Of a stretch of DNA of 64,000 bases, positions 22,322 to 60,682 are shown one piece after another. Source of the stretch: Candidatus Aenigmatarchaeota archaeon (GTDB taxonomy: Archaea > Aenigmatarchaeota > Aenigmatarchaeia > JACPZZ01); the NCBI GenBank assembly GCA_043801595.1, contig JAZDLW010000019.1:32949-96948 (forward strand). Direction: 5' to 3'. The notes below the pieces were generated by a model. That model was not told the origin of the DNA. It saw only the letters and a list, made by a program, of their open reading frames with translations, and searched no databases. The first letter of the stretch is position 1; each line of letters starts with the position of its first letter. The translations under genes and the position numbers were made by a program.

Positions 22322-23272
22322 ATGATAACGAAAGAAGACGCGAAAACGAACGACAGGTACGGGACGTATCCAGAAAAAAGAACCATAGCCCAGCTTATGG
22401 ATTACGGCGTGATAAACCTGGATAAACCGCAGGGACCGACCAGCCACCAAGCGGTTGCATGGTTGCGCGACATTCTTGGAACAAGGAAAATCTCGCACAC
22501 AGGTACGATCGATCCGATGGTAAGCGGGGTTCTTGTTGTTTTGTTAAACGAGTCGCCGAAAGCGACAGAAGTTATCGGGCACGAAGAGAAGGAGTATATC
22601 GCGCTTATGCACGTGCACCAGCAGTTTCCGAAAAACATTATTGAAAATTCGGTCAAAAAATTCGTTGGAAAGATAACACAGCTTCCTCCGCTGCGATCAG
22701 CGGTTGCGCGTCGCGAGAGGGTGCGCGAAATAAAGGAAATAGAACTGCTTGAAATAAACGGTAAAGATGTTTTATTCCGCGTCCGCTGCGAGGCAGGCAC
22801 GTACATACGACGATTGATCGACGACATAGGAAAAGATTTGAAGTCGAAAGCGCACATGGCAGAGCTGCGAAGAATACGGGCGGGCGTGTTCGAAGAGAAA
22901 GATTCTTTCACAATGCACAATGCCAAGGACGCATGGGACGCTTACAAGGAGAACGGCGATGAAAGCAGGCTGCGAAAAATAATAATGCCGCTTGAAAAAG
23001 TTTTGGATGTTGTTGGCGTGAAAAAAATAATTGTAAAGGATTCGGCTGTCAATAAGATATGCAACGGAGCGGCTGTCGGCGTTAACGGCATAGCGAAACT
23101 CAGCGATAACATCGGAAAAGGCGAAACTGTTGTCATACTAACGCTAAAGGGCGAGATAGTCGCTGTTGCAGCAGCGTTGATGGACTCGAAGGCGATAACA
23201 AAAGCAAACCGCGGGATTGCGGCGAATACGGACCGCGTGTTAATGAAACTAAATACGTATCCCTATTTGTAA
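22322..23272 (+). CDS. cbf5: tRNA/rRNA pseudouridine synthase Cbf5 (H/ACA RNP catalytic subunit)
   Basis: Contains the TruB catalytic motif GVINLDKPQGPTSHQ...HTGTIDPMVSGVLVV and a C-terminal PUA-like domain (VKDSAVNKICNGAAV). The start is at the first ATG; the track begins at a TTG. Confidence 0.9.
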   Translation: MITKEDAKTNDRYGTYPEKRTIAQLMDYGVINLDKPQGPTSHQAVAWLRDILGTRKISHTGTIDPMVSGVLVVLLNESPKATEVIGHEEKEYIALMHVHQQFPKNIIENSVKKFVGKITQLPPLRSAVARRERVREIKEIELLEINGKDVLFRVRCEAGTYIRRLIDDIGKDLKSKAHMAELRRIRAGVFEEKDSFTMHNAKDAWDAYKENGDESRLRKIIMPLEKVLDVVGVKKIIVKDSAVNKICNGAAVGVNGIAKLSDNIGKGETVVILTLKGEIVAVAAALMDSKAITKANRGIAANTDRVLMKLNTYPYL

Positions 23273-23286
23273 CCGGAAAAAATCGC

Positions 23287-24255
23287 TCAGCGTCCGGGTA
23301 TCGGCTTCACAAACATATGTTCTTCCCAGTGAACTGTTTCGGTGTAGCCTGCTGACGGAAGCACCTTTTTACGGATATATTCGTCAAGCTCTACCGTTGT
23401 CTTTTCTTTCAATGTTCTGTAACTCCTTTCTATTTCCGCAAAAGCGCTTCCGGTCTCCCTTCTCAGAATTGCGAGATGGGTGTTGAGGCGGGCTGCGCAA
23501 TATCCGACTTTGTCTGAACCGGTTTCTTCGTGCATCCCGCGCATGCAATCGGTTATGACCGAAGCCGTTATTTCCGCGCGCTTGTCGCGGTGATGCTCTC
23601 TTCTGTAACTTCTTGTGCCCTCCTCGAATTTTCTTAGCGCTTCGTAATAGTCTTTCATGCCATTGATAATCTTTCCTGTCAGGAAGCTAAGATAATCCGG
23701 TTGCAGTTCAAAAGTGATCGGTGTCAGGTCGATTGTCACGTTTTTGTTAGACTCTGACTCGCTTGGTCCCAGTGGCGTGACTTTCTTTTGCTTGTATAGG
23801 ACGCCTCCCATGACCTCCGCTACTTCTGAATTTGTTTTTTGCAGGCCTTTTCCTTCAAATACATTGTTTGGCAGCAAAACGAAAACATGCTGCATAAGGC
23901 GGGTGTTGTAACCTTCAGTGTCGTCCAGAGGAGAAAGTATCGACCGCCAGTATTCCGAGGGCGGTTGCGACAAAATCAGGCTAGATATTCTGTCCCTGAT
24001 TTCATCAGGCGCACACGCGTTCTTTGTCAATATTTGTTTCTGTTTCTGGCTGTGGAAAGTCCTTACCCTTTCTTCTACAGCGGTTTTTTCAATACTTTCG
24101 ATTATCTGCGAACCGTAGGATGTTGCTATGTCCATTGCCAGCTGTTTCGTTTTTCCAGGGTCCTGTTCCGATTCGCGGAGCGTCAGGCGGAGGTCTTCTA
24201 CCGAGAACATGGCATCGTTGTTGATTTGTTGCATTTCTTCCCAGCTGTTCATCAT
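23287..24255 (-). CDS. Hypothetical protein (orphan, 322 aa)
   Basis: A long uninterrupted ORF with no recognisable motif and a soluble composition. It is divergent from 24333-25130. Confidence 0.5.
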   Translation of the reverse strand: MMNSWEEMQQINNDAMFSVEDLRLTLRESEQDPGKTKQLAMDIATSYGSQIIESIEKTAVEERVRTFHSQKQKQILTKNACAPDEIRDRISSLILSQPPSEYWRSILSPLDDTEGYNTRLMQHVFVLLPNNVFEGKGLQKTNSEVAEVMGGVLYKQKKVTPLGPSESESNKNVTIDLTPITFELQPDYLSFLTGKIINGMKDYYEALRKFEEGTRSYRREHHRDKRAEITASVITDCMRGMHEETGSDKVGYCAARLNTHLAILRRETGSAFAEIERSYRTLKEKTTVELDEYIRKKVLPSAGYTETVHWEEHMFVKPIPGR

Positions 24256-24332
24256 GACAAATCATTATCAGGTAAGTTTTAAATTACCATGAGAATGAAA
24301 GGTTTTAATCCCTTGCACGTCAGAAAAATCTT

Positions 24333-25130
24333 ATGAAAAACGGATGGAAAATCTACGTGTTTGAGCACGATCCTTATTCTTCCGAACTGGCAGAATCGCT
24401 GCAACTGGTATTCGGGCTGGAGAGGAGAAGCGTAAATGTAACGTACGGGGACAACAGGAAACAAATTATAAATAAAGTGAAAAAAGCCATCAACGGGGAT
24501 CATGAAAGGATTCTCACTGTCCTTGGTCACGGATACGCACACAAAATGACCTACGGCCTCTGCAAGCACGTCGCCGACAGTCGAAGCGACGGTTATGTCT
24601 ACTACCATTTCGACCAGCACGGCGACATCGGTCACATATGGACGCGCATCACCCACGGCGGCTTCGTAGCCAGATTGTTCAATGATACGAAAGCGCAGGA
24701 TGTTGTATTTTCCGATGAACCCGATTTCAACAGCCGCGCGCTTGCCAGGGGTTTGGACGTGGACGATACCGGGGCGTCGTTGATGACAAATAAGAACGTT
24801 CCTGACGCATATTGTTCGTTCGATCTGGATTGCATGCGTTACGAGGAAATAAAAACCGGCTGGCCGGGAGGAACGATGCATTCGATCGCATTGCTCAACG
24901 AAGTGGAAAATATCAAAACGAAGAAGGACATAATCTCAGCCGATGTCCTTGGCTATTCCGGCGAAAGGGATGCCAAAAGTCACGTGATGTATGCGGTGCT
25001 CATGGAGACGCTCATCGGAGGCGGACGCGTCGATGAATTCAAGTCGCTACACGAAATCGCAAAGAATGGGCGGATCGACTATCAAGACATGCTCAAAGAA
25101 TTCAAGTCAATCGGAAGTTGCGGACGCTGA
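24333..25130 (+). CDS. Hypothetical protein, possibly a divergent ureohydrolase (arginase/agmatinase) fold
   Basis: Candidate metal-ligand motifs occur in arginase-family order: LGHGYAH, HFDQHGD (D-x-H-x-D) and CSFDLDC (S-x-D-x-D). Similarity is otherwise weak. Confidence 0.35.
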   Translation: MKNGWKIYVFEHDPYSSELAESLQLVFGLERRSVNVTYGDNRKQIINKVKKAINGDHERILTVLGHGYAHKMTYGLCKHVADSRSDGYVYYHFDQHGDIGHIWTRITHGGFVARLFNDTKAQDVVFSDEPDFNSRALARGLDVDDTGASLMTNKNVPDAYCSFDLDCMRYEEIKTGWPGGTMHSIALLNEVENIKTKKDIISADVLGYSGERDAKSHVMYAVLMETLIGGGRVDEFKSLHEIAKNGRIDYQDMLKEFKSIGSCGR

Positions 25131-25140
25131 TAACGCATAC

Positions 25141-25163
25141 TAAAAAGAATAGCGCCGAGGAAG
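25141..25163. repeat. Distal direct repeat of the tRNA 3' end (att-like)
   Basis: TAAAAAGAATAGCGCCGAGGAAG matches TAAAAAGATTAGCGCCGAGGAAG at 27275-27297 in 22 of 23 positions. Confidence 0.8.
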
Positions 25164-25224
25164 CGATATACCTCGAAGTGTTCACATCCTGCCCTTGTTT
25201 TATCTTATTAGGACTTTCTATAGT

Positions 25225-25668
25225 TTACGTTGCATGCACAGCATAATTCGATGGCGCATACGAATCGTATAATTTCCAAATGTCGCCAATCTTTTGCATT
25301 CTAAAGGTGTTTGCGGGATCAAGATATGTTTTATTATTTTCTGTTTTTATCACATCCGCGGTAATAGTAGCATCGGTCTGATTGTTATACTCTACTTTGG
25401 TGATGTTTAGATCCATCCCCATTTTGGAGCATGCATCCGGTTGCGGTTTAGTTTCTACACAGAATTTTCTAACAACATCCCAATATTGGATACCCAGATA
25501 ATCTCCGGATTTTTCAAAATCACCAGATTTCCAAAGGGAAAGAAGTGCTCTAAGGTCGTTTTCCGGCGTATGTGAGAAATATGTGTTAAAAATAAGCCAA
25601 GCCATAGCAACGAACAGAACAATACTTACAATTCGCTTTTTATTAGGAGTTATTTTCAGTGTTTTCAT
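25225..25668 (-). CDS. Membrane-anchored hypothetical protein
   Basis: MKTLKITPNKKRIVSIVLFVAMAWLIFNTYF is a signal anchor, followed by a ~115-aa soluble domain. The start is at the internal ATG at 25668; the track ORF extends to 25743. Confidence 0.45.
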   Translation of the reverse strand: MKTLKITPNKKRIVSIVLFVAMAWLIFNTYFSHTPENDLRALLSLWKSGDFEKSGDYLGIQYWDVVRKFCVETKPQPDACSKMGMDLNITKVEYNNQTDATITADVIKTENNKTYLDPANTFRMQKIGDIWKLYDSYAPSNYAVHAT

Positions 25669-25750
25669 TCTCTCACTTGATGTATGTCCATGCCCATCCT
25701 TCCGGCCTCCAAACCTTAAACCCAAAGGATGGGATATGGACAATTTGACT

Positions 25751-25764
25751 TAGCGCCGAGGAAG
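25751..25764. repeat. Internal direct repeat of the tRNA 3' end (att-like)
   Basis: TAGCGCCGAGGAAG is identical to 25150-25163 and 27284-27297. Confidence 0.7.
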
Positions 25765-25952
25765 AACGACCCGGTTTATCAGGGTCATACAGCCTTCCGC
25801 ACGAAACTATGATGAGCTTTCATGTTATTGGGGTCGCTGGAAAATAAAGGCGACGGTAAAGCTCCCTTTTTGGCTGCATCTTGCCTAGTTTGCGGGTAAA
25901 GGCACCGAAATCTATAAAAACTATAACTGCTATAACACCTATAGGTGATATA

Positions 25953-26132
25953 GTGACCAACACTACAATAGCAGTGAGGAAAGAGACGAAAGAGCTGTTG
26001 AAGCACTTCGGCGGCAAAGGCGACACGTACGATGACGTTATCCAGAAGATGTCAGCGACATACGAAGAGTTTGTAAACACTCAATACAACCGTTTGACGG
26101 AAAAACATAAGTTCAAGAAGATGGACCTATGA
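25953..26132 (+). CDS. Putative antitoxin (ribbon-helix-helix-like) of the RelE pair
   Basis: TTIAVRKETKELLKHFGGKGDTYDDVIQKM resembles small archaeal antitoxins. There is a 4-nt ATGA overlap with the toxin gene. A GTG start at 25953 follows a TCTATAAAAACTATAA TATA-like element at about 25909-25924. The track ORF begins at a TTG at 25881. Confidence 0.55.
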   Translation: MTNTTIAVRKETKELLKHFGGKGDTYDDVIQKMSATYEEFVNTQYNRLTEKHKFKKMDL

Positions 26133-26392
26133 TGGCTGTCCTGATACACGACGCAGCCGATAAATCGCTAAGAAGTTTTGAGAAGAAAGTGCGGGAAAGG
26201 ATAAAACAGCAAATAAAACTTCTGGCTGAGAACCCGTATTCCACACAGTTGGACATCGTGAAACTCAAGGGAATAAACGACGGCCCGGACTTATTCAGGA
26301 TGCGCGTCGGTAATTACAGGGTCATTTATTTCATCCAAGATGGGAAAATCCTTATAACGGATATAGGAAGACGGGAACGAATCTATGGTTGA
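26129..26392 (+). CDS. relE: RelE/ParE-family toxin
   Basis: 87 aa. The pattern KQQIKLLAENPY....VKLKG...LFRMRVGNYRVIYFI.DGKILITDIGRRERIY is typical of RelE/StbE/YoeB-type mRNA interferases. Confidence 0.75.
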   Translation: MMAVLIHDAADKSLRSFEKKVRERIKQQIKLLAENPYSTQLDIVKLKGINDGPDLFRMRVGNYRVIYFIQDGKILITDIGRRERIYG

Positions 26393-26466
26393 TCCGCATG
26401 GTTGGCAAATAAAACCGACGGTGGGGATCCCTCGCTAGTTTTAAGTTTAGATATTGAATTCTAATT

Positions 26467-27180
26467 ATGGCAGTCGATGACAAGCTATCTAAATATTGTA
26501 AAGGAATAATAGAATACCCATTTTATAGCCATCCTTATTTTTCTGACGCTATTAACGCAAACGGAACTGTAGATGTTAAAAAATTTCAACAACGATATCA
26601 GACATTCTTATCAGATAAACGATTAAGACGATCCCTCTCTGATACTGAAAAAAAAGTGTTGCTGGGAAGAGCGGGCATAGAAGGTTACCAGAAAACCCAA
26701 AAGGAGATAGGAGCGGAAATGCGGCGATCCGGTAACAGAGTTTTTCAAATAGAAACAAAGGCGTTGAGAAAATTACTGCCAAGAAGCAACGGAGGTGTAT
26801 TAGACGCACTCTACCTTGAAGAGTTTGAAGCCACAAGTGCGAAGTACGCTAAATCGAAAGATTTTGATTTGGATTATATAAACCGAATTAAATCGCAGGC
26901 GGCGGCAAAGATCATGGAGGAAGAAGAAAAGACACGCAAACAAATACAGCTAACTGAAGAAAATGCTCGTCATAAGGCTCATTTAACTGAGTACGGTATC
27001 CAACATTTAGGACTTTCATCACGCACAAATAACAGCTTATTGAGAGGAGGCGTCGATGTCATAGATCAGCTAGAAGAAAAAAGTGATGAAGAATTACTTA
27101 AAATACGAAATGTAGGAGTAAAGTCAATAAGAGAAGTTCGTGAAAGACTGGAAGCTTATCACAAACAAAGGAAGCCCTGA
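26467..27180 (+). CDS. DNA-binding protein fusing a sigma-70 region-4-like HTH to an RNA polymerase alpha-CTD-like domain
   Basis: LSDTEKKVLLGRAGIEGYQKTQKEIGAEMRRSGNRVFQIETKALRKLL fits the sigma-70 region 4.2 pattern. LGLSSRTNNSLLRGGVDVIDQLEEKSDEELLKIRNVGVKSIREVRERL fits the alpha-CTD helix-hairpin-helix pattern. Confidence 0.6.
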   Translation: MAVDDKLSKYCKGIIEYPFYSHPYFSDAINANGTVDVKKFQQRYQTFLSDKRLRRSLSDTEKKVLLGRAGIEGYQKTQKEIGAEMRRSGNRVFQIETKALRKLLPRSNGGVLDALYLEEFEATSAKYAKSKDFDLDYINRIKSQAAAKIMEEEEKTRKQIQLTEENARHKAHLTEYGIQHLGLSSRTNNSLLRGGVDVIDQLEEKSDEELLKIRNVGVKSIREVRERLEAYHKQRKP

Positions 27181-27274
27181 TCACAAGACTGTTATTTTGG
27201 TGAGGTCTCCAACCAGTGGGTCTCCTGGGCCGGGAGTTTACCCTATAATTGAACTCCCTCGTATGGGCGTCCTC

Positions 27275-27297
27275 TAAAAAGATTAGCGCCGAGGAAG
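27275..27297. repeat. Proximal att-like repeat overlapping the tRNA 3' end
   Basis: TAAAAAGATTAGCGCCGAGGAAG. Positions 27287-27297 are the discriminator plus the 3' acceptor strand and the start of the T-stem of the minus-strand tRNA. Confidence 0.8.
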
Positions 27298-27520
27298 GGA
27301 TTTGAACCCTTACGGGACTTGCGCCCCACCGGATTTCTAAGGCTCCAAACTTAAAGGATTCCTCATCTCGCCGCCGTGATCAGAATCAAGCCTTGTTGTC
27401 ATAGCCTCTCAAGTATCGCCTATGCACCAATCATCTCTGGTATCAGCATATCCGGCGCATTTAACCTGGTTCTGCCTTCGATTGTACAGCTGGAATACTT
27501 CCAGCAGCAAAAACCTCGGC
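27287..27520 (-). tRNA. Class II tRNA (probably tRNA-Ser) interrupted by two intervening sequences
   Basis: On the minus strand, the 5' acceptor strand GCCGAGG+T is at 27520-27513. The D-arm and 5' anticodon stem GGCAGAACCAGGTTAAATGCGCCGGA are at 27476-27451. The 3' part at 27333-27287 is TCCGG-T-GGGGCGCAAGTCCC-GT-AAGGGTTCAAATCCCTT-CCTCGGC-G. It contains a long variable arm with a GCAA loop, a canonical T-arm, an acceptor strand complementary to the 5' end, and G73. The gaps are ~36 nt and ~110 nt. The anticodon is ambiguous: GCT at 27447-27445, or AGA/TAG at about 27339-27336. Confidence 0.6.
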
Positions 27521-27702
27521 TCTCCTCGGCATATTTTAATTGCGCGGAAAGGTTAATAAACGTCCGTTTGGCACGCCGCGTTTAGATACCAAGCTACGTC
27601 AAAAAATCACGCATAAATATGGCATATGACGTAGTTGAATGACAGGTATTATAAAAAAAACATTCGCTAAATCTAAAAGAAACGAAAAACGGAATAATTG
27701 TT

Positions 27703-43023: not shown

Positions 43024-43644
43024 ATGAAGATTAAAGTAAATGAGCAAACTAAAGATAAAATTTCGTTCACTTTGGAAGAGGCTGACGTGGCTTTTGCGAA
43101 CGCGATGAGAAGGGTAATGATGGTCGAGGTTCCGGCAATGGCAATTGAGTTCGTCGACTTCCACGAAAACAGTTCCGCGATGTACGACGAGGTTATTGCG
43201 CACAGGCTCGGACTTATACCCCTTACGTTTGATCCAAAGCTTTTCAACCTTCCGGACGAATGCATTTGCGAAGGCAAAGGATGCTCGCAATGCCAGGTCT
43301 ATTTTGTTATTGACAAAAAAGGACCTTGTACTGTCTACTCCGGCGATATGAAATCCACTGAAGAGAGCGTAAAACCGGTTGATCCGGGATTTCCGATAGT
43401 CGAACTGCTTGAAGACCATAACCTTAAACTCGATGCAATCGCCCAGCTTGGAAAGGGCGAAGCGCACATAAAATGGCAGGCAGCGATTGCAGCATACAAG
43501 TACGCGAAGAGCAATGATACGAAGTTCAATTTCACTGTTGAGACTGTTTCCGGGCTTGAGCCGTCGTACATAGTACAGAAGGCGGCCGCAATAATCGAAG
43601 GAAAAGCTGAAGAGTTTAAGAAACAGCTAAAAGAAGCGAAATAA
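43024..43644 (+). CDS. rpoD: DNA-directed RNA polymerase subunit D (Rpo3)
   Basis: SFTLEEADVAFANAMRRVMMVEVPAMAIEFVDFHENSSAMYDEVIAHRLGLIPL is the Rpb3/RpoD dimerisation-domain signature. A four-Cys patch, CICEGKGCSQC, is present. Confidence 0.88.
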   Translation: MKIKVNEQTKDKISFTLEEADVAFANAMRRVMMVEVPAMAIEFVDFHENSSAMYDEVIAHRLGLIPLTFDPKLFNLPDECICEGKGCSQCQVYFVIDKKGPCTVYSGDMKSTEESVKPVDPGFPIVELLEDHNLKLDAIAQLGKGEAHIKWQAAIAAYKYAKSNDTKFNFTVETVSGLEPSYIVQKAAAIIEGKAEEFKKQLKEAK

Positions 43645-44637: not shown

Positions 44638-47600
44638 ATGAATTTTAAAGCGTTTGCAGGTTTTGCGGCGTGGGGAATAGTTGCGGCATCAATTTCATTA
44701 ATTTTAGTTTTCGCTGTTTCTATTTTGATGAGCTCAGCGGAAACCTTGGTTATTGATGCTGGTAACGTTTCAGTATCCGCACCCAATGGTGCGACATCTG
44801 GCGCCGGGATAATTGTAAAAAACGACACAACGGTGTTATACAACTTTACAATCCAAGTCACGGGCAATGTATCATTTATTAACATAACGGTTCCTTCTTG
44901 GCCTCATGCCGCGGATTCAGCAAACATTACTGTTGGACGAAACACAAGCATCGTACCAGCTAATGTTCAACTTGGTCAAGGACTTACCAGTAATTGGGCA
45001 GTAAGTTATATTGAAAATTTCACTAACGGCGGGGTAAAAACAATTCGATTGAATGCAACAATGCCTGCAGGAACAATAGGCGGAGCTTCAAATGTAAAGA
45101 TCGTGTGGTTCGCATTCAACGGCACGTCTAATATCACAGGACTTGGCAACCTATCCGATAACCAGACAATGACATGGTATGTTTATGCCGCAAATGATAC
45201 CAGTTCGTCTTTGCTGAAAGTAATAACGCTGGTCGACAACAACCCGCCGAGAATATTAGTAACAAAACCTTTGCTGAACAGTTCGAACAACGCGTACATA
45301 CGCGGTCTGGCCGCAGAAATATTCCAGGTCAACGTGACTGAAGTTGAATTGAATGTATCGGAGAGCGCAAATAATGACGGTTCTACCAACGCGACTTTGT
45401 GGTACAGAAACGTAGGAACCAACAGGGATACGGGTGTAGGTTGGAGCAAAAAGACGCTGGCTTGTTATAACTCTGCAGGCGGCATGCTGCCTAACGATCT
45501 CACACACAACAAGTATACGTGCAATACAACGATAGATTTGTCATCGCTTGCGTTTGTGGGTGAAAACGAGTTGATACAATTTTTCTTCAACGCATCGGAT
45601 CTTGTGCTGAATGCAGGTTACAACGGCACGCAGGCTTCGCCGCACGAGGCGCAGGTCGACAGGACAGCGCCGACATCGTCAAGCGTGGCTAACAATGTGT
45701 CGTATGTGAACCCGAGCAATTTCGTCCGATTGAACGTGCAATTCGATGATAATTTTGCGCTTGCGAATGCGACGTTGGCGACGAATGAAACCGAAACTGG
45801 GGCATATTTCAACTACACCGACAACAAAACACGGGGCTCTCCCATAACGATGGCAGGAAATTCATACGTGCTCAATTTCACGTGGCAAAACACATCGCTT
45901 GTGTCCGGGCTGATAGTGGGATGGCAGATTTTGGCAACGGACATAGCGGGCAATGTGCATGCGACAGCGCTTAAGACATTCACTGTTGATGCCGATGCTC
46001 CGTCAACGCTTGGCGGATTCATGAGTCCTGCTAGAAATGCAAATTTAACCGGGGACTCCATACTCGTAAACGTTTCCGTCAATGACACATTATCAGGCGT
46101 ATCTATGGTTTACCTTAACATTTCGTACGAGGCGTCAACAGGGTCAATAAGAGGAATTAATAACATAACGCTGACGCAGGGCATAGCAGGTTATTGGAAC
46201 GCGACTGTAAATTCCACATTTAACCTTATTACAGAATCGCCCGCCAACGGCAATTATACATTCAGAATTGTTGCGAATGACACGTTGAATAATGAAAACC
46301 ACACTATGAATATCACGGTCTGGATAGACAACACAGCGCCGGCTATATCCATCACGCGACCTACTGCAGGCCAGATTGTGACAGGGCAGTTTAATATAGA
46401 GGCTTTGGTTACAGATGCGGTAAGGGTTGCCAGGGTTCAGTACAGATTAAGCAATGCCACATACACGAGCGGGATATATTTCCAGATGCTAAACACTTCT
46501 GACCTCTTGATGAACCAGAGCGGTGTTTACAACCTGACAAATGTTACCAATGCCAATTTGTTCCTTGACGGCGTTTGGAACGTGACAGTGTGGGCGAACG
46601 ACAGCGTGAACAACATAGCGCAGGAGAATGTGAGCATAACAATCGACAACGTGCAGAATGCGACTGAACTTGATATCGTATCCTATGTAAACGGAAGCGT
46701 CAGGAAAGCGGGTCAAACCATAAACTTAAACTTCACAACAATAGGCAACCAGTTCGGTTTGTTCCCGTCCGGCTTCGGTTATAACATTTCAGTTTACATC
46801 GTCAACTCAAGCGGGACAGCGATCTATGCCGGTAACGTGTCCAACAGTTCGGAATTCTGGGCCAACGGCACGATTACGATACCCGCGAACACCGCAGATT
46901 CCGTGATAGACGACGGCAACAGAACGTTTGTGTTCAAGACATTCGACAACGGCGGGAACCTGATGGTAAATGGATCTTCAAACTTCACAGTCAGCATAGA
47001 CAATACCGCTGCGAGTTATTCCAACCCGTTGCCTTTGAACAACAGCTACATTACAGGAAGTGCGGCACAGCTGTTCCAGATAAGCGTGACTGAGGTCAAT
47101 TTAAACGCAAGCAAGAACGTGACGCTGTACTGGGGTATTGGCCCTGCCATACCGACTGCTTGGAACGCTAAAACGCTGTTATGTACAGGAACTGCGGGCA
47201 GCAATTATCTGTGTAACACGACAGTAGACCTGTCAACTTCTCCTACCAACAAGATAATTTATTACTTCTTCAACAACTCAAACGTTACTCAACCGAACGG
47301 AGATTTGGCGGGCAATGGAGCCGGGTTTGGAACAGAGGTTATTCCGTTTAACACAACGATTGACAGGGTGAACCCTGTTGTGGGCGTATTACTTCCGTTG
47401 GGCAGCGCTAATGTGTCAGGTTCATTTACACTAAACATAAGTGCGAACAACACGCCTTCGGGCATTGCGAGCGTTTCCTACAGGGTAACAAATGACACTT
47501 TCCAGTCGGGTCCAATAGCTTTGAGCTTGGGTATAGGAACAGCCTTTAGCGGTTACTGGAACGGAACCAACAATACTTTCGGAATAGGTTTGGAGGACGG

Positions 47601-50313
47601 CCTGTACAGAATAAGCATTAACGCAACGGACAACGCAGGCAACTTAAACACTACAGTCAACGTGACAATAACGATTGACAACACAAAACCTAATGTTACA
47701 ATCGTTACGCCTACAGCGAACCTGAATTTCTCAACCTCGATAATCATAAATGCGACTGTCCGCGATTCTGGAATAACGTCGACGATAAATGCTGGCAACA
47801 TACAGTCTGTGCAATATCGTCTTTCAAACAGCAGCTGGGCAGGTTCATTGTTGGCAATGACAAACGAGTCCTCGGCTGGAGAAGCGTTCTTTGATATGTA
47901 CAACGCGACAAACTTCACGAGCGCAAATCTAGCAGACGGACGATATAACCTGACAATAGTCGCAACCGACTACGCAGGGAACGTTAACAATTCGCAAAAT
48001 GTGACAATCGGTATTGACAACACAGCGCCGATGGTTAGCATCAAGTCGCCGACAGCGAACCAGTTTATCAAAGGTACGTTCAACATAATGGCTGATGTCA
48101 ATGACGCGGTCTGGGTTAAGAGCGTATGGTACAGGATAAGCAACGTAACGGACGCGTTTGACGTGCTAGGAAGCGCTTATCTCACCATGAGTAACAATTC
48201 AGGCGTGAATGCTACTGGCGGTGGATACTTCAATGGAACAAATATAACATCTGCCGCATTGTTCGGTGACGGTTTGTACAACATAACAGTTGCTGCGAAC
48301 GACACCCTGAACCATGTAACATACGCTAACGTGACTGTCACGATAGACAACAATGTGCCTGTGGAATTCGACGTTACTACGAATACTTCAGAACCTGCGT
48401 CAGGAATAGAATACTTCCCCGGGAGGTTCTACAGGTTCAACAAGACTTTCAATGATACAATAGGTGTTACGAGCGTCATAATGCAGATTAATGCGACGAA
48501 CCGCACGGCTTTCAGGTATGAAGGCGACGCACAAGGCGGCAATTGGTCGGCTAATGTAACAGATCTGGCTGCGAACACGACAGGTTATCCGATAATCTGG
48601 TACGCTTCGGACACGACTGGAAACTGGCTCAAGACAACGCAATGGTATTATGTAATTGCAAAGAACGCTTCACCGGCAGTGATATTGGAAGTTAACGGCA
48701 CGCAGGCGAGCGGTGGCATCGTCAATGTGTATACATGGGAGAGGGGAACGGCGCTTAACATAACTGCGTATTCGCCGACAAGCCTGACAATAAACACAAC
48801 ATTGTTCGCGAACATAACGACTGTGGCGAATCAATTCATAAACCTGACTGCGCTGTCGTTCAGGCCGTATCCGGCAGGCAACCAGAACATAACGATTTCG
48901 AACTTGAATATGGCGTTGGGCATTTACAACATCACCGCCAATACAACAGACAATGAAAACTACACCGCAAACGGCACAGTGGCCATGGTAATCGTTACGC
49001 TGCAGGATTCAGCGCCTTATTCAATGATACTGTCGCCCGCTAACAACTCGAATATAACCGGCTCGATGCTGATCAACGTATCGACGATAGACTTGAGCGG
49101 TGTTGCCAATGTGTCATACTACCTGTTCAACGAAACCGACGGCATAAGCGCATCGGGATTGTTAAACAACACAGGGAACATAAACGGCAACCACTACAAT
49201 GTTACTATAAGCACATCCTCGTTATACGAGGGCAGGTTCAAGCTTAACATAACGGCTTACGACTCCATCGGCAATGTGAACATAACATATTACTTCAACA
49301 TTACAGTGGACAGGACTGCACCGGTGATAATATTCAATTATCAGGCAGAGGGAACGAGACTGGCAGACTTGACACCGGGCAACAATTCTTACAGGTCTGG
49401 GACTATCTCGGCGAACGCGACTATATCCGACTCTGTATCCGGTGTTAACGGCGGGACGCAGTTATTCAGAATCGGCAACCGCACGAACTGGATGGGACCG
49501 GCATTCGGGCTTTCGGTGTTTGCGGGCGCGTTCAACGGAACCAACGGCACGATCTTGTTGGCCGACGGTTTATACAATATCACGATAACAGCGAACGACA
49601 CAGTAGGCAATGTAAGAACCAATGTGACGTTCTTCTATGTGGACAATACGGCGCCGACTGTGATAGCGTTGAGCAACAGCACAAGAGGAAAATACATTCC
49701 GAATGCGTCGGAACAAATAATGGTACAGGTCAATGATGCTTCGCAGACAAATGCAACTATAGATGTGCGTGCTTGGTCCAACAATACAGGATGGACTATT
49801 TACAAGACTACAAATGCAACGCCTGGCACAGCGTCCATTTACAACGTGACTATAGACACCTCTGACCTTGTGGACAACGAGAGAGTAAAGTTCTTTGTCA
49901 TGGTGACAGATAATGCAAGCAACGTAGCGACGTACACGGGTTCGTTGGGAATACCGCTAGCTAACATAACGATTGATGTTAACTGCGGATATGTCGGCAG
50001 ATTATTGAACTACTGCTCTGATAACGATCTTTGGCAAGCTAAGTTCGCCTCTGCACAACTGCCGCAGAAGAGCGATATAGAGAGTATCAGTTCGCTGCAG
50101 AGCAACTTTACAGTTGAAAATGTTACAAAGAGAGCCGGTATGTGGGGCTTCTTCAACTACACCTACTATTACAACGGCGCGTCATGGCTTTCGTTCGACC
50201 CGAACTCAGCGCCATCCGAGAACACGCTCAAGATGTTCAATAACACAGGTGCGCAGGTATACCTGTTCAACATGAACAAGACTATCCCAGACTTTGTGTT
50301 CAGAATAGAATAA
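44638..50313 (+). CDS. Giant secreted surface protein (1891 aa) of repeated Ig-like modules, heavily sequon-loaded (S-layer/adhesin candidate)
   Basis: GAGGT lies 8 nt before the ATG. The N-terminal hydrophobic segment is AWGIVAASISLILVFAVSILM. I count about 20 N-x-S/T sequons in the first ~300 aa, and the density looks similar throughout. A module-boundary motif recurs: QVDRTAP, TVDADAP, WIDNTAP, SIDNTAA, TIDRVNP, TIDNTKP, GIDNTAP, TIDNNVP, TVDRTAP, YVDNTAP. No C-terminal anchor is present. Confidence 0.8.
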   Translation: MNFKAFAGFAAWGIVAASISLILVFAVSILMSSAETLVIDAGNVSVSAPNGATSGAGIIVKNDTTVLYNFTIQVTGNVSFINITVPSWPHAADSANITVGRNTSIVPANVQLGQGLTSNWAVSYIENFTNGGVKTIRLNATMPAGTIGGASNVKIVWFAFNGTSNITGLGNLSDNQTMTWYVYAANDTSSSLLKVITLVDNNPPRILVTKPLLNSSNNAYIRGLAAEIFQVNVTEVELNVSESANNDGSTNATLWYRNVGTNRDTGVGWSKKTLACYNSAGGMLPNDLTHNKYTCNTTIDLSSLAFVGENELIQFFFNASDLVLNAGYNGTQASPHEAQVDRTAPTSSSVANNVSYVNPSNFVRLNVQFDDNFALANATLATNETETGAYFNYTDNKTRGSPITMAGNSYVLNFTWQNTSLVSGLIVGWQILATDIAGNVHATALKTFTVDADAPSTLGGFMSPARNANLTGDSILVNVSVNDTLSGVSMVYLNISYEASTGSIRGINNITLTQGIAGYWNATVNSTFNLITESPANGNYTFRIVANDTLNNENHTMNITVWIDNTAPAISITRPTAGQIVTGQFNIEALVTDAVRVARVQYRLSNATYTSGIYFQMLNTSDLLMNQSGVYNLTNVTNANLFLDGVWNVTVWANDSVNNIAQENVSITIDNVQNATELDIVSYVNGSVRKAGQTINLNFTTIGNQFGLFPSGFGYNISVYIVNSSGTAIYAGNVSNSSEFWANGTITIPANTADSVIDDGNRTFVFKTFDNGGNLMVNGSSNFTVSIDNTAASYSNPLPLNNSYITGSAAQLFQISVTEVNLNASKNVTLYWGIGPAIPTAWNAKTLLCTGTAGSNYLCNTTVDLSTSPTNKIIYYFFNNSNVTQPNGDLAGNGAGFGTEVIPFNTTIDRVNPVVGVLLPLGSANVSGSFTLNISANNTPSGIASVSYRVTNDTFQSGPIALSLGIGTAFSGYWNGTNNTFGIGLEDGLYRISINATDNAGNLNTTVNVTITIDNTKPNVTIVTPTANLNFSTSIIINATVRDSGITSTINAGNIQSVQYRLSNSSWAGSLLAMTNESSAGEAFFDMYNATNFTSANLADGRYNLTIVATDYAGNVNNSQNVTIGIDNTAPMVSIKSPTANQFIKGTFNIMADVNDAVWVKSVWYRISNVTDAFDVLGSAYLTMSNNSGVNATGGGYFNGTNITSAALFGDGLYNITVAANDTLNHVTYANVTVTIDNNVPVEFDVTTNTSEPASGIEYFPGRFYRFNKTFNDTIGVTSVIMQINATNRTAFRYEGDAQGGNWSANVTDLAANTTGYPIIWYASDTTGNWLKTTQWYYVIAKNASPAVILEVNGTQASGGIVNVYTWERGTALNITAYSPTSLTINTTLFANITTVANQFINLTALSFRPYPAGNQNITISNLNMALGIYNITANTTDNENYTANGTVAMVIVTLQDSAPYSMILSPANNSNITGSMLINVSTIDLSGVANVSYYLFNETDGISASGLLNNTGNINGNHYNVTISTSSLYEGRFKLNITAYDSIGNVNITYYFNITVDRTAPVIIFNYQAEGTRLADLTPGNNSYRSGTISANATISDSVSGVNGGTQLFRIGNRTNWMGPAFGLSVFAGAFNGTNGTILLADGLYNITITANDTVGNVRTNVTFFYVDNTAPTVIALSNSTRGKYIPNASEQIMVQVNDASQTNATIDVRAWSNNTGWTIYKTTNATPGTASIYNVTIDTSDLVDNERVKFFVMVTDNASNVATYTGSLGIPLANITIDVNCGYVGRLLNYCSDNDLWQAKFASAQLPQKSDIESISSLQSNFTVENVTKRAGMWGFFNYTYYYNGASWLSFDPNSAPSENTLKMFNNTGAQVYLFNMNKTIPDFVFRIE

Positions 50314-60556: not shown

Positions 60557-60682
60557 TGGGGAAACCGTGATTTGAACACGGGTCACCGACTAATTCTAAA
60601 TCTTTCTTTCCCTTAAGGCTTTCTTGTTGAAAGAAAGGCTTACCCGAAGCCGGTATCTTAGACCAGGCTGGACCATTTCCCC
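60557..60682 (-). tRNA. tRNA-Pro (anticodon CGG) with a 51-nt intron at the canonical 37/38 position
   Basis: On the minus strand the acceptor stem is GGGGAAA/TTTCCCC with A73. The D-arm is GTCC-AGCCTGGTCTAA-GAT. The anticodon stem is CCGGC/GTCGG and the loop is TT-CGG-G|intron|A. The T-arm is CCGTG-TTCAAAT-CACGG. The intron spans 60592-60642. CCA is not encoded. Confidence 0.8.

What the first reader, a model, noticed from the sequence alone, without database searches (positions are those of the whole stretch)
26467..27180. Bacterial sigma-70 region-4 HTH fused to an RNAP alpha-CTD-like domain, encoded in an archaeal tRNA island
**Seen in sequence.**
- Residues ~55-105 (LSDTEKKVLLGRAGIEGYQKTQKEIGAEMRRSGNRVFQIETKALRKLL) follow the sigma-70 region 4.2 pattern L..rEr.Vl.lRyGl....T..EIg..lg.SreRVrQIE.kALrKL.
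- Residues ~180-232 (LGLSSRTNNSLLRGGVDVIDQLEEKSDEELLKIRNVGVKSIREVRERLEAY) follow the alpha-subunit C-terminal-domain pattern L.LSvRs.NcL....I..v.dL....eeeLlkirN.GkKSl.EI...L.
- The two modules are joined by a charged, probably helical linker (KIMEEEEKTRKQIQLTEENARHKAHL).
- About 50 aa at the N-terminus are unique.

**Established knowledge.** Both modules belong to the bacterial transcription apparatus. Archaea use TBP/TFB. Their Rpo3/RpoD (present at 43024-43644) lacks an alpha-CTD.

**Inference.**
- A single polypeptide combining a -35-type HTH with an UP-element-type minor-groove reader has no obvious partner in an archaeal host.
- It also sits on a putative mobile insertion next to a toxin-antitoxin pair.
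- It could be a horizontally acquired element-encoded repressor or partition protein, or a factor aimed at a bacterial neighbour or host.
- I am not aware of this fusion being described, but I cannot search.
Basis: partly seen in the sequence, partly recalled or inferred. Interest (0 to 1): 0.75.

Follow-up and report, generated by a model that had tools for sequence, protein, structure and literature searches.

The report
Bacterial-type DNA-binding protein on archaeal tRNA cassette
A DPANN archaeon (Aenigmatarchaeota) carries a real gene that joins two DNA-binding domains borrowed from the bacterial transcription machinery. The gene sits with a toxin-antitoxin pair in a 1.5-kb cassette inserted at the end of a tRNA gene, so it is most likely a mobile-element DNA-binding protein rather than part of a bacterial-style RNA polymerase.

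Summary
ORF 26467-27180 (237 aa) has a Sigma70_r4 domain (34.6 bits) and an RNA_pol_A_CTD domain (56.1 bits), both above Pfam's gathering cut-offs. An AlphaFold model (pLDDT 86) superposes on solved αCTD and σ4 structures. The host is a Candidatus Aenigmatarchaeota MAG.

The fusion itself is not unique. About 100 of the 163 best relatives, out of 1.84 billion representatives, carry both domains, including phage-borne proteins (PHROG 351).

What is new is a tiny archaeal family of six members. It has its own conserved 50-residue N-terminal module.

The strongest finding is the genomic setting:
- In three genomes the family gene lies in a 1.1-1.5 kb cassette without an integrase, bracketed by exact direct repeats of the 3' end of the adjacent tRNA gene.
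- In the window the 14-mer TAGCGCCGAGGAAG occurs three times, with none expected by chance.
- In two of the three genomes the cassette also holds a ParE toxin-antitoxin pair.
- A relative with about 82% nucleotide identity lacks the cassettes.

Best reading: a horizontally acquired, cassette-borne, RNAP-independent bipartite DNA-binding protein, acting as a regulator or maintenance factor. A role in integration is not excluded.

The parts
26467..27180 (+). σ4-αCTD protein gene (237 aa), the finding itself
   Evidence: ORF. Pfam finds both domains above the gathering cut-off. AF2 model has pLDDT 86.4. Foldseek matches to αCTD and σ4 structures.
26467..26616 (+). Family-specific N-terminal module (residues 1-50; motifs YC, HPYF, NGTVDV, FQxRY). 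It is the most conserved part of the family.
   Evidence: Invariant columns in alignments A2 and A3. phmmer finds it only in P0005, P0007, P0010 and P0096. No Pfam, PDB or Foldseek match beyond σ4.
26632..26775 (+). Sigma-70 region 4 helix-turn-helix (residues 56-103)
   Evidence: Pfam PF04545, 34.6 bits. PDB SigA/RpoD region 4. Foldseek 1ku3, 1ku7 and 3n97. This segment has pI 11.3.
26869..26994 (+). Long charged helix (residues 135-176), a spacer. It is not conserved in the family: relatives have a second αCTD here or nothing.
   Evidence: AF2 secondary structure. Alignment A1.
26965..27153 (+). RNAP alpha C-terminal-domain-like helix-hairpin-helix domain (residues 167-229)
   Evidence: Pfam PF03118, 56.1 bits. 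PDB 3gfk_B and others. Foldseek 7vpd_S, TM(target) 0.92, rmsd 0.8 A.
25881..26132 (+). Putative antitoxin (83 aa; weak DUF7557 match). First gene of cassette A.
   Evidence: Pfam E=4e-4, below the cut-off. Its end overlaps the ParE start by 4 nt.
26129..26392 (+). ParE/RelE-family toxin (87 aa). Second gene of cassette A.
   Evidence: Pfam ParE_toxin, E=9.9e-11. NCBI name. A ParE gene also sits directly upstream of the family gene in L005.
25751..25764 (+). att-like copy of the tRNA-Leu 3' end (TAGCGCCGAGGAAG). Left boundary of cassette A.
   Evidence: the repeat finder family D1. Three exact copies in 64 kb against 0 expected.
27284..27297 (+). The same 14-mer inside the real tRNA-Leu 3' end. 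Right boundary of cassette A.
   Evidence: tRNA model.
25140..25167 (+). Outer 28-nt copy of the tRNA-Leu 3' end plus its flank, 93% identical to 27274-27301. Left boundary of cassette B.
   Evidence: the repeat finder family D2..
25225..25743 (-). 172-aa ORF with one hydrophobic segment, the only gene of cassette B (25164-25750). Function unknown.
   Evidence: ORF. No Pfam, PHROG or PADLOC hit. The cassette has GC 0.387.
27286..27520 (-). tRNA-Leu(UAG) gene with two introns. Exons are 27520-27512, 27475-27450 and 27341-27286. It is the integration target.
   Evidence: The in-silico spliced 91-mer is called a canonical tRNA-Leu by default ARAGORN, with a perfect 7-bp acceptor stem. Rfam gives only a weak tRNA-like hit on the unspliced DNA. 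The ortholog is conserved in L085.
27204..27258 (+). GGTCTCC x2 and the GGGAGTT(12)AACTCCC inverted repeat between the stop codon and att. Present but not distinctive.
   Evidence: No counterpart in L001, L004 or L005.

Best explanation
The gene encodes a cytoplasmic, four-part protein: a family-specific N-terminal module, a σ70 region-4 helix-turn-helix, a long helical spacer and an αCTD-type helix-hairpin-helix domain. It belongs to a six-member family seen so far only in DPANN (Aenigmatarchaeota-type) archaea. The family is an offshoot of a large, uncharacterised class of σ4+αCTD proteins found in bacteria and their phages or mobile elements.

In the archaea the gene is not part of the core genome. 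It rides on a 1.1-1.5 kb cassette without an integrase, inserted at the 3' end of a tRNA gene. The cassette is bracketed by direct repeats of that tRNA end. In two of three cases it also holds an antitoxin-ParE pair.

The host has no bacterial RNA polymerase. The protein lacks σ region 2 and the α N-terminal domain. It therefore cannot act as a σ factor or an α subunit.

Inferred mechanism: the two modules act as a stand-alone, two-part DNA reader. The basic σ4 helix-turn-helix would sit in a major groove and the αCTD on a nearby A/T-rich minor groove, as the two domains do side by side in PDB 3N97. In this way the protein would regulate or stabilise its own cassette, for example as the DNA-binding third component of the ParE module or as a repressor of cassette promoters.

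Shown: the domains, the folds, the family, the cassette structure, the absence from a close relative, and the bacterial/phage relatives.

Inferred: DNA binding, the targets, and the regulatory role.
For: Domains and folds.

Not a σ or α subunit: only r4 and the CTD are detected.

Archaeal host on a 107-kb contig.

Family members, and where they sit:
- P0007/L001 lies next to the archaeal HMG-CoA synthase/thiolase/DUF35 operon.
- P0005/L004 is from an 'uncultured archaeon' and P0010/L005 from a 'Ca. Aenigmatarchaeota' genome.
- P0020 and P0096 were found on short contigs.

Cassette evidence:
- Window: the 14-mer occurs 3 times with 0 expected.
- L005: the 11-mer occurs 4 times with 0.01 expected.
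- L001: the 13-mer occurs 2 times with 0 expected.
- In each case the last copy is the true tRNA 3' end.
- L085, a relative at about 82% nucleotide identity with the same flanks, has one copy and none of the cassette genes.
- Cassette A has GC 0.417 and the gene 0.387, against a window mean of 0.456 (sd 0.020).

ParE lies directly upstream of the family gene in the window and in L005.

The architecture is widespread in bacterial and phage proteins.

DNA-binding potential:
- The σ4 segment has pI 11.3.
- The target keeps the residues that, from established knowledge, correspond to E. coli α R265, N268, G296, K298 and S299. This can be read from the alignment to B. subtilis αCTD.
- αCTD-like and σ-HTH-like domains are already interpreted as accessory DNA-binding modules outside RNAP in BREX proteins (PMC12839542).

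A TATA-like A/T-rich element lies about 25-35 nt upstream of the start codon in three of the four loci (window, L001, L004). In L005 the gene starts 13 nt after ParE, with only a short A/T run just before the ATG.
Against: - No binding site has been identified. The repeats downstream of the gene are not distinctive or conserved.
- The σ4 recognition helix is the least conserved part of the family. In the target it keeps only 2 of the roughly 5 -35-contacting positions of σ70 (SGNRVFQ versus TRERIRQ).
- The αCTD DNA-contact residues vary between family members. Specific DNA binding is therefore not guaranteed, and the αCTD could be a protein-contact module instead.
- L001 has the gene without a TA pair. 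L004 has neither a tRNA nor clear repeats. A dedicated TA-regulator role therefore cannot be general.
- The most conserved part, the N-terminal module, has no assigned function.
- Only 3-4 loci carry enough context to judge.
Confidence: 0.6

Rival explanations
1. The protein is an integration or excision accessory factor for the cassettes. In this reading it works like a recombination directionality factor or XafT: it binds and bends att DNA and recruits a recombinase encoded elsewhere in the genome. More radically, its conserved N-terminal module might itself carry catalytic residues.
For: - The family gene is the only gene shared by the tRNA-proximal cassettes in three genomes. In L001 it is the only gene of the cassette.
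- No integrase was found in any cassette.
- The gene always lies next to the att copy inside the live tRNA.
- The cassettes target different tRNAs (Leu-UAG and Val-GAC) while the σ4 recognition helix varies.
- The N-terminal module has invariant Y10, C11, H22, Y24, R43 and Y44.
Against: - Neighbouring cassettes in the same arrays lack the gene (L005 PIN/MazE cassettes, window cassette B). It is therefore not needed in cis.
- There is no similarity to any recombinase, excisionase or HUH fold.
- A 50-residue module is very small for a catalytic domain.
- L004 shows no tRNA or att context.
- Being nearest the tRNA in three arrays of sizes 2, 3 and 1 would happen by chance about 1 time in 6.
Confidence: 0.15
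2. The cassettes are decayed remnants of larger integrated viruses or plasmids of Aenigmatarchaeota. The σ4-αCTD gene would then be a leftover element transcription regulator with no present role, possibly on its way to loss.
For: - Tandem arrays of element remnants at tRNA genes are well known in archaea (PMC6563490).
- TA modules are typically the last genes to be lost.
- Bacterial relatives sit in phage-like loci and in PHROG 351.
- The σ4 recognition helix is degenerate in some members, such as P0005 and P0010.
Against: - All full-length members keep intact ORFs and confidently predicted folds at only 31-43% identity. This argues for purifying selection.
- Independent decay to nearly the same 1.1-1.5 kb content at two different tRNAs is unlikely.
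- TATA-like elements are retained upstream in three of the four loci.
Confidence: 0.15
3. It is an ordinary chromosomal archaeal transcription factor that happens to use bacterial-type domains. It would be vertically inherited and unrelated to mobile DNA.
For: - L004 has housekeeping neighbours: L44e, eIF2α, PAC2 and enolase.
- L001 and L005 share synteny with the mevalonate operon.
- σ70-like genes have been reported in DPANN (PMC8204110).
Against: - The gene is absent from a relative with conserved flanks.
- It is bracketed by tRNA-end repeats in three genomes.
- Its GC content is low.
- The family is extremely sparse: six members among 1.84 billion representatives.
Confidence: 0.07
4. It is an artefact of binning or assembly, i.e. 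a bacterial gene on a chimeric contig. Alternatively, it is a factor that acts on a bacterial RNA polymerase in a neighbouring cell.
For: Both domains are bacterial hallmarks. The αCTD is 49-52% identical to RpoA αCTDs, including one from Patescibacteria.
Against: - The gene is embedded in a 107-kb contig with archaeal genes on both sides, and it abuts an intron-containing archaeal-type tRNA.
- Homologues occur on three other archaeal contigs from independent assemblies.
- There is no signal peptide or membrane segment: the maximum Kyte-Doolittle score over 19 residues is 0.33.
Confidence: 0.03

Closest known systems
Bacterial/phage proteins with Sigma70_r4 + RNA_pol_A_CTD (PF04545 + PF03118), including PHROG 351 'RNA polymerase sigma factor'. 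Examples are P0087, P0113, P0119, P0147 and P0170, and the large multi-αCTD forms P0006, P0008 and P0014.
   Same: - The same two domains, in the same order (σ4 then αCTD) in the small forms, with similar lengths of 190-300 aa.
- Association with mobile elements or phages.
- Function not experimentally known, as far as I could find.
   Different: - The archaeal family has its own conserved N-terminal module and a post-σ4 helix (LDxxYLxEF) that the bacterial forms lack.
- Its host has no σ-dependent RNAP for these domains to engage.
- Its σ4 recognition helix has diverged.
- Many bacterial members carry 2-11 αCTD copies plus HARE-HTH or helicase domains.
σ70 region 4 and the α-subunit CTD bound side by side on UP-element/-35 DNA (PDB 3N97)
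   Same: The folds are the same (Foldseek TM(target) 0.84-0.89 for σ4 chains of 3n97; αCTD rmsd 0.8-0.9 A to several αCTD chains). This complex gives a structural precedent for the two modules reading adjacent major and minor grooves.
   Different: - Here both modules are on one polypeptide, separated by about 70 residues that include a 42-residue helix.
- σ70 -35 contact residues R584, E585 and R588 are replaced by G, N and F.
- The α 261-determinant that contacts σ4 is not conserved. This is my reading of the alignment combined with established residue numbering.
- There is no RNAP core to anchor either module.
BREX type 2 PglW (αCTD-like domain followed by HTH modules), BrxL (SIGMA-HTH-like domain) and MzaA
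   Same: αCTD-like and σ-type helix-turn-helix domains are used as accessory nucleic-acid-binding modules outside RNA polymerase, in conflict and mobile-element contexts (PMC12839542).
   Different: Those are large multi-enzyme defence proteins (kinase, ATPase). The target has no enzymatic domain and matches PglW only weakly (E=2e-4).
Three-component ParE toxin-antitoxin modules with a separate DNA-binding regulator (PaaR-PaaA-ParE of E. coli O157:H7; ω-ε-ζ). From my own knowledge, not tested here.
   Same: A ParE-family toxin, a small antitoxin and a third gene that encodes a DNA-binding protein lie in one compact unit. This arrangement recurs in two distant genomes.
   Different: - The regulator is the last gene rather than the first, and it is unrelated in fold to PaaR or ω.
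- In the window a 74-nt gap with a hairpin/T-run and a TATA-like element separates it from ParE.
- L001 has the gene without any TA pair.
Archaeal integrated mobile elements at tRNA 3' ends, and integrase-less derivatives (CIME-like elements; IMEX elements that use host Xer recombinases)
   Same: - Direct repeats equal to the 3'-terminal 11-15 nt of the tRNA.
- Tandem re-use of the same site.
- A close relative with the site unoccupied.
- TA cargo.
(general features in PMC6563490)
   Different: - Each unit is only 0.6-1.5 kb and no integrase is present in any unit.
- The array looks more like an integron cassette array, but with tRNA-end repeats instead of attC sites.
- Mobility itself has not been shown.
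σ70-like proteins reported in DPANN archaea (fam00359; Castelle et al. 2021, PMC8204110)
   Same: Bacterial-type σ-related genes on genuine DPANN contigs, with no known partner or control mechanism.
   Different: That report concerns σ70-classified proteins, mostly in Woesearchaeota. An αCTD fusion, the N-terminal module and the cassette context are not mentioned in the passages read, and the term search of the held supplements found nothing. Whether the families overlap could not be checked.

Membership tests
σ70-family sigma factor | Region 2 (core-RNAP binding and -10 recognition), normally together with region 4 | tested here: not met
   Pfam and NCBIfam detect only region 4 (residues 56-103). 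No Sigma70_r2 or r3 hit. All σ equivalog scores are far below their cut-offs.
σ70-family sigma factor | Region 4 helix-turn-helix fold | tested here: met
   PF04545 at 34.6 bits against a cut-off of 24.1. Foldseek 1ku3/1ku7/3n97. The profile matches SigA/RpoD region 4 at E about 1e-9.
σ70-family sigma factor | Conserved -35-contacting residues of the recognition helix (E. coli σ70 R584, E585, R586, R588, Q589; established knowledge) | tested here: not met
   The target reads S-G-N-R-V-F-Q where σ70 reads T-R-E-R-I-R-Q. Only the R586 and Q589 equivalents are kept (sequence; alignment pattern).
Bacterial RNAP α subunit (RpoA) | N-terminal dimerisation/assembly domain (RNA_pol_L + RNA_pol_A_bac) | tested here: not met
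   No such Pfam hit. rpoA equivalogs score 35-55 bits against cut-offs of 228-523 and align only to the C-terminal part.
Bacterial RNAP α subunit (RpoA) | αCTD fold with the DNA-binding '265 determinant' (R265, N268, C269, G296, K298, S299; established knowledge) | tested here: met
   PF03118 at 56.1 bits. rmsd 0.8 A to 7vpd_S. The alignment to B. subtilis αCTD shows R, N, G, K and S retained and C replaced by S. These residues are not uniformly kept in the other family members.
σ4 + αCTD accessory proteins (PF04545 + PF03118 architecture; PHROG 351) | Both domains on one polypeptide, with no σ region 2 and no α NTD | tested here: met
   for the target. The same architecture is confirmed by Pfam in 14 relatives and by my own HMMs in 100 of 163. 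The target matches phrog_351 at E=1.9e-9 over residues 56-161.
Aenigmatarchaeota N-module/σ4/αCTD family (defined here) | N-terminal YC...HPYF...NGTVDV...FQxRY module, then σ4, then an LDxxYLxEF helix, with or without 1-2 αCTDs | tested here: met
   Alignments A1-A3. 31-46% identity to P0005, P0007, P0010, P0020 and P0096. The N-module is found only in these proteins.
tRNA-targeting integrated mobile element | Direct repeats (att) identical to the 3' end of the target tRNA, flanking the inserted DNA | tested here: met
   Window: 3 exact 14-mers with 0 expected. L005: 4 exact 11-mers. L001: 2 exact 13-mers.
tRNA-targeting integrated mobile element | Site unoccupied in a closely related genome | tested here: met
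   L085 has the same flanks at about 82% nucleotide identity, a single att copy inside the tRNA and none of the cassette genes. The DNA to the left of the tRNA also differs there.
tRNA-targeting integrated mobile element | Element-encoded integrase/recombinase | tested here: not met
   No recombinase domain was found in the scanned ORFs of the window's variable region and cassettes (322-aa, arginase-like and 172-aa ORFs, antitoxin, ParE, target), the L005 array genes, or the ORF upstream of the L001 gene (Pfam, PHROGs or PADLOC). The rest of the genomes was not searched.
tRNA-targeting integrated mobile element | Demonstrated excision or circular form | not testable with these tools
   This needs the raw reads of the source metagenome or an experiment.
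Three-component ParE toxin-antitoxin system | ParE toxin + antitoxin + a dedicated DNA-binding regulator in one operon, conserved together | tested here: inconclusive
   ParE is present (9.9e-11). The antitoxin assignment is weak. The trio recurs in L005, where the gap between ParE and the family gene is 13 nt. It is absent in L001 and L004.

The most novel reading that the evidence does not exclude
Aenigmatarchaeota carry an integron-like system of very small cassettes without integrases. These insert one after another at tRNA 3' ends. In this reading the σ4-αCTD protein, through its strongly conserved N-terminal module and its two DNA-binding domains, is the cassette-encoded factor that selects the att site and recruits a host recombinase, or is itself a new kind of recombinase. 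That would be a new mobile-element strategy in archaea, built from parts of the bacterial transcription machinery.
Probability: 0.12. Interest if true: 0.85.

Novelty: new variant of a known kind. Interest (0 to 1): 0.58.

Why it matters
- It shows that two hallmark modules of the bacterial RNA polymerase holoenzyme, σ region 4 and the α C-terminal domain, circulate together as a stand-alone unit on mobile DNA. That unit has crossed into DPANN archaea, where the polymerase they evolved to serve does not exist. This offers a clean natural test of what the two domains can do without RNAP.
- It puts a concrete case behind earlier reports of unexplained σ-like genes in DPANN.
- It reveals arrays of kilobase-sized toxin-antitoxin cassettes bounded by tRNA-end repeats in these tiny genomes. 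This bears on how DPANN archaea gain and keep foreign genes.
- The large bacterial and phage class of σ4+αCTD proteins is itself uncharacterised. A function found for any member would annotate hundreds of protein clusters.

Tried and rejected
1. Default ARAGORN and Rfam at gathering threshold found no tRNA in the window. This was misleading: the tRNA-Leu has two introns.
2. My first search for att repeats compared only the far-left boundary (23200-23420) with the tRNA end and found nothing. The repeats lie further in and were found by the repeat finder.
3. Pattern scans of JGI metagenome contigs and of IMG/VR viral contigs found no family member. The word-indexed protein search found only P0001 and P0007.
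4. The exact-protein look-up of the window protein found no contig on record.
5. The first genome scan with alignment A1 failed because no block was conserved enough.
6. The N-terminal half was modelled separately (pLDDT 76) and searched against the PDB. Only σ4 matched. Alignments to σ4/β-flap-tip chimeras are longer (88-102 columns). This hints that the conserved helix after σ4 could occupy the flap-tip groove, but the rmsd of 6-8 A is too poor to claim it.
7. The ORF upstream in L001 looked αCTD-like by eye. BLASTP and Pfam rejected this.
8. Proteins flanking the arrays (window 322 aa, L005 248 aa, L004 284 aa, L085 222 aa) are unrelated to each other and have no family hits. None is a candidate shared integrase.
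9. The GGTCTCC repeats and the hairpin as binding sites: not enriched, not stable beyond chance, not conserved.
10. Literature searches for the fusion (Pfam names, HARE-HTH, archaeal σ4/αCTD) gave no paper describing it. The held supplements of PMC8204110 do not contain fam00359.
11. L004 has only weak (74%) A/T-rich repeats around a 2.3-kb segment that holds the gene. This is inconclusive.
Full report
**1.

The ORF at 26467-27180 (+) encodes 237 residues. Pfam finds RNA_pol_A_CTD at residues 167-229 (E=3.1e-15, 56.1 bits, cut-off 23.8). It also finds Sigma70_r4 at residues 56-103 (E=1.3e-8, 34.6 bits, cut-off 24.1).

NCBIfam models for rpoA and for RpoD/SigK/RpoS match only the C-terminal pieces, far below their equivalog cut-offs. 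The protein therefore has the two terminal DNA-binding domains but neither σ region 2 nor the α N-terminal domain.

Sequence searches of the PDB return bacterial αCTDs at about 2e-9 and σA/σ70 region 4. An AlphaFold2 model built on the six-member family alignment has mean pLDDT 86.4. Foldseek superposes its C-terminal domain on αCTD chains (7vpd_S: TM(target) 0.92, rmsd 0.8 A, 40% identity). It superposes the middle domain on σ4 (1ku3, 1ku7, 3n97: TM(target) 0.70-0.89).

The charged linker is one long helix, residues 135-176. The N-terminal 50 residues match nothing known.

**2. The host is an archaeon and the contig is not a chimera**

The window carries Cbf5 (with DKCLD domain), an EMC3/TMCO1-like protein, SecY with the Sec61 plug, and an S13-S4-S11-Rpo3 cluster in which Rpo3 has no αCTD. 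It also carries intron-containing tRNAs. NCBI records these proteins from a 107-kb contig of a Candidatus Aenigmatarchaeota archaeon MAG. The target is MFH0889894.1, named 'DNA-directed RNA polymerase subunit alpha C-terminal domain-containing protein'.

**3. The fusion is not unique; the archaeal family is**

An exhaustive phmmer search of 1.84 billion representatives gave 1883 hits at E<=1e-3. Pfam confirms both domains in every one of 14 relatives checked outside the archaeal family.

These relatives take several forms:
- Small two-domain proteins of 190-300 aa, with σ4 then αCTD as in the target.
- Large proteins with 2-11 αCTD copies plus HARE-HTH.
- Large proteins with helicase and HA domains.

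PHROG 351 ('RNA polymerase sigma factor') spans both domains in P0119. One small relative, P0170, lies in a phage-like locus beside Phage_min_cap2 and scaffold genes. Another, P0172, lies among hypothetical genes near a resolvase. PADLOC's PglW and MzaA models also match these domains. A recent BREX survey describes an αCTD-like domain in PglW and SIGMA-HTH-like domains as accessory DNA-binding modules (PMC12839542). I found no paper that describes the σ4-αCTD fusion as such.

Full-length relatives of the target are very few: P0005, P0007, P0010, P0020 and the αCTD-less P0096, at 31-46% identity. They share a strongly conserved N-terminal module with the motifs YC, HPYF, NGTVDV and FQxRY. They also share a conserved helix after σ4 (LDxxYLxEF).

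Conservation is uneven across the protein. In alignment A2 (four sequences) there are 19 invariant positions in the first 48 residues. σ4 has only 5, and its recognition helix is the most variable part.

The members with usable context are archaeal. L001 lies next to the HMG-CoA synthase/thiolase/DUF35/HMG-CoA reductase operon. L005 is from a Ca. Aenigmatarchaeota genome and L004 from an 'uncultured archaeon'. σ70-like genes in DPANN have been noted before without explanation (PMC8204110).

**4. The context is the main new result**

*The target tRNA.* Just downstream of the gene, on the minus strand, is a tRNA-Leu(UAG) gene (27520-27286). Default tools miss it because it has two introns of 36 and 108 nt. 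Spliced in silico, it is a canonical tRNA with a perfect acceptor stem.

*The repeats in the window.* The last 12 nt of this tRNA plus 2 nt of flank (TAGCGCCGAGGAAG) occur three times in the window. All three are in the same orientation, at 25150, 25751 and 27284, with none expected by chance. The outer copy extends to 28 nt at 93% identity.

These copies delimit two cassettes:
- Cassette A (25765-27283, 1.5 kb) holds a putative antitoxin, ParE and the σ4-αCTD gene.
- Cassette B (25164-25750, 0.6 kb) holds one 172-aa ORF.

*The relative without cassettes.* L085 (GCA_053536215.1) shares about 82% nucleotide identity over the flanks from SecY to Cbf5 and from tRNA-Leu into the OFOR genes. It has a single copy of the 14-mer, inside the tRNA, and none of the cassette genes.

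*Composition.* Cassette A has GC 0.417 and the gene 0.387. The mean for 1.5-kb windows is 0.456 (sd 0.020).

*The same design in other genomes.*
- In L005, the last 11 nt of tRNA-Val(GAC) occur four times. They bound three cassettes: PIN/MazE, MazE/PIN, and an 86-aa ORF/ParE/family gene of 1.48 kb.
- In L001, the last 12 nt of tRNA-Val plus 1 nt of flank occur twice. They bound a 1.1-kb cassette that contains only the family gene.
- L004 has no tRNA and only weak repeats.

Integration at the 3'-distal part of tRNA genes, short att sites and tandem re-use of a site are established features of archaeal integrated elements (PMC6563490). What is unusual here is how small the units are, and that none of the scanned ORFs in or beside the arrays shows a recombinase domain.

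**5. How it most likely works**

The host lacks a σ-dependent polymerase and the protein lacks the parts that dock σ and α onto core RNAP. It therefore cannot be a σ factor or an α subunit. It has no signal peptide or membrane segment, so export to a bacterial neighbour is unlikely.

Several features point to DNA binding:
- The σ4 segment is very basic, with pI 11.3.
- The αCTD keeps the equivalents of E. coli α R265, N268, G296, K298 and S299. I read this from the alignment, using established residue numbering.

I therefore infer a stand-alone two-part DNA reader, with a helix-turn-helix in a major groove and a helix-hairpin-helix on a nearby minor groove, as the two domains sit together in PDB 3N97.

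Its recurrence beside ParE in two distant genomes suggests a regulatory or maintenance role for the cassette. A comparable arrangement is the DNA-binding third component of some ParE systems (own knowledge). The spacing differs between the two genomes: 13 nt from ParE in L005, and 74 nt with a hairpin/T-run and a TATA-like element in the window.

Caveats:
- The -35-contact residues of σ70 are mostly replaced (SGNRVFQ against TRERIRQ).
- The DNA-contact residues of both domains vary within the family.
- No target site could be identified.
- The best-conserved module has no assigned function.

**6. Rivals**

- *Integration accessory factor.* An att-binding accessory role, or even a recombinase role, is suggested by four things: the gene is the one constant of the tRNA-proximal cassettes, no integrase is present, different tRNAs are targeted, and the N-module has invariant residues. 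Against it, sister cassettes lack the gene and there is no similarity to any recombination protein.
- *Decayed remnants.* Remnants of larger elements would explain the missing integrase. They would not easily explain convergence on the same minimal content, nor the intact and confidently folded proteins at 31-43% identity.
- *Core archaeal transcription factor.* This is contradicted by absence of the gene from L085 and by the flanking repeats.
- *Chimeric assembly.* This is contradicted by the context and by three independent archaeal homologues.

**7. Verdict**

The domain call and the mobile-island suspicion are right. The claim of an undescribed fusion is wrong at the level of architecture. 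It stands for the archaeal family, for its N-terminal module, and for its setting on tRNA-bounded mini-cassettes. I rate it a new variant of a known kind, of moderate to good interest. The cassette arrays and the possible role of the protein in them are the part most worth following up.

Noticed in passing
window 27286-27520 (-): A tRNA-Leu(UAG) gene with two introns: 36 nt after position 9 (27511-27476) and 108 nt in the anticodon arm (27449-27342). Default ARAGORN and Rfam at gathering threshold both miss it. The spliced sequence folds as a canonical class-II tRNA with a perfect 7-bp acceptor stem. The exact splice junctions are ambiguous by a few nt, and bulge-helix-bulge motifs were not checked.
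   Followed up: partly
L085 7746-7850 (ortholog of window 27283-27340): The orthologous tRNA-Leu in the related genome carries an extra insertion of about 43 nt inside the T-arm (between GGGATTT and TTTGAACCC). This may be a third intron. It is why BLAST homology appeared to stop at window 27300.
   Followed up: partly
L005 3630-6922: An integron-like array of three small toxin-antitoxin cassettes: PIN/MazE, MazE/PIN, and ?/ParE/σ4-αCTD. Each is bounded by the last 11 nt of tRNA-Val(GAC). Two of the repeats share a longer 28-nt identity (TGGGCCCGAAGTGAACCGCTTTTGAAAG) that extends into the cassette.
   Followed up: partly
window 23273-25139, against L085 5641-7745 and 3248-4651: The locus between Cbf5 and tRNA-Leu is hypervariable. 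The window has a 322-aa unknown ORF and an arginase-family-like ORF. L085 instead has a 222-aa ORF and an aldehyde dehydrogenase. L085 also has GIDE + LemA genes inserted between EMC3 and Cbf5, which the window lacks.
   Followed up: partly
window 27514-27530 (-): The 5' acceptor-stem heptamer of tRNA-Leu is duplicated in tandem (GCCGAGG AGA GCCGAGG) just upstream of the gene. Origin unknown.
   Followed up: no
window 60557-60682 (-): tRNA-Pro(CGG) with a 51-nt intron. It is called only when ARAGORN is allowed introns.
   Followed up: no
window 44638-50313 (+): A giant 1891-aa ORF with bacterial Ig-like domains (Big_13, Big_3_3). It is probably a surface or adhesion protein, as is typical of DPANN episymbionts.
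   Followed up: no
proteins P0006, P0008, P0011, P0014, P0015, P0025, P0048 and others (one search hits): A very large and apparently uncharacterised class of metagenomic proteins with 2-11 tandem αCTD-like domains plus one σ4 domain. Many also have HARE-HTH, or an SNF2/ResIII helicase with an HA domain. They overlap the middle region of the BREX PglW model.
   Followed up: partly
L088 550-963 (P0096): A 137-aa family member that has the N-terminal module and σ4 but no αCTD. It ends just before a convergent GHMP-kinase gene. This shows that the N-module + σ4 core can stand alone.
   Followed up: partly
L087 1-250: In the 844-nt contig that encodes P0020, the family N-terminal motif (EYCSKLV...HPYFNRALKED) is readable upstream of the called start. 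The 185-aa call is therefore probably truncated by a frameshift or a low-coverage error.
   Followed up: no
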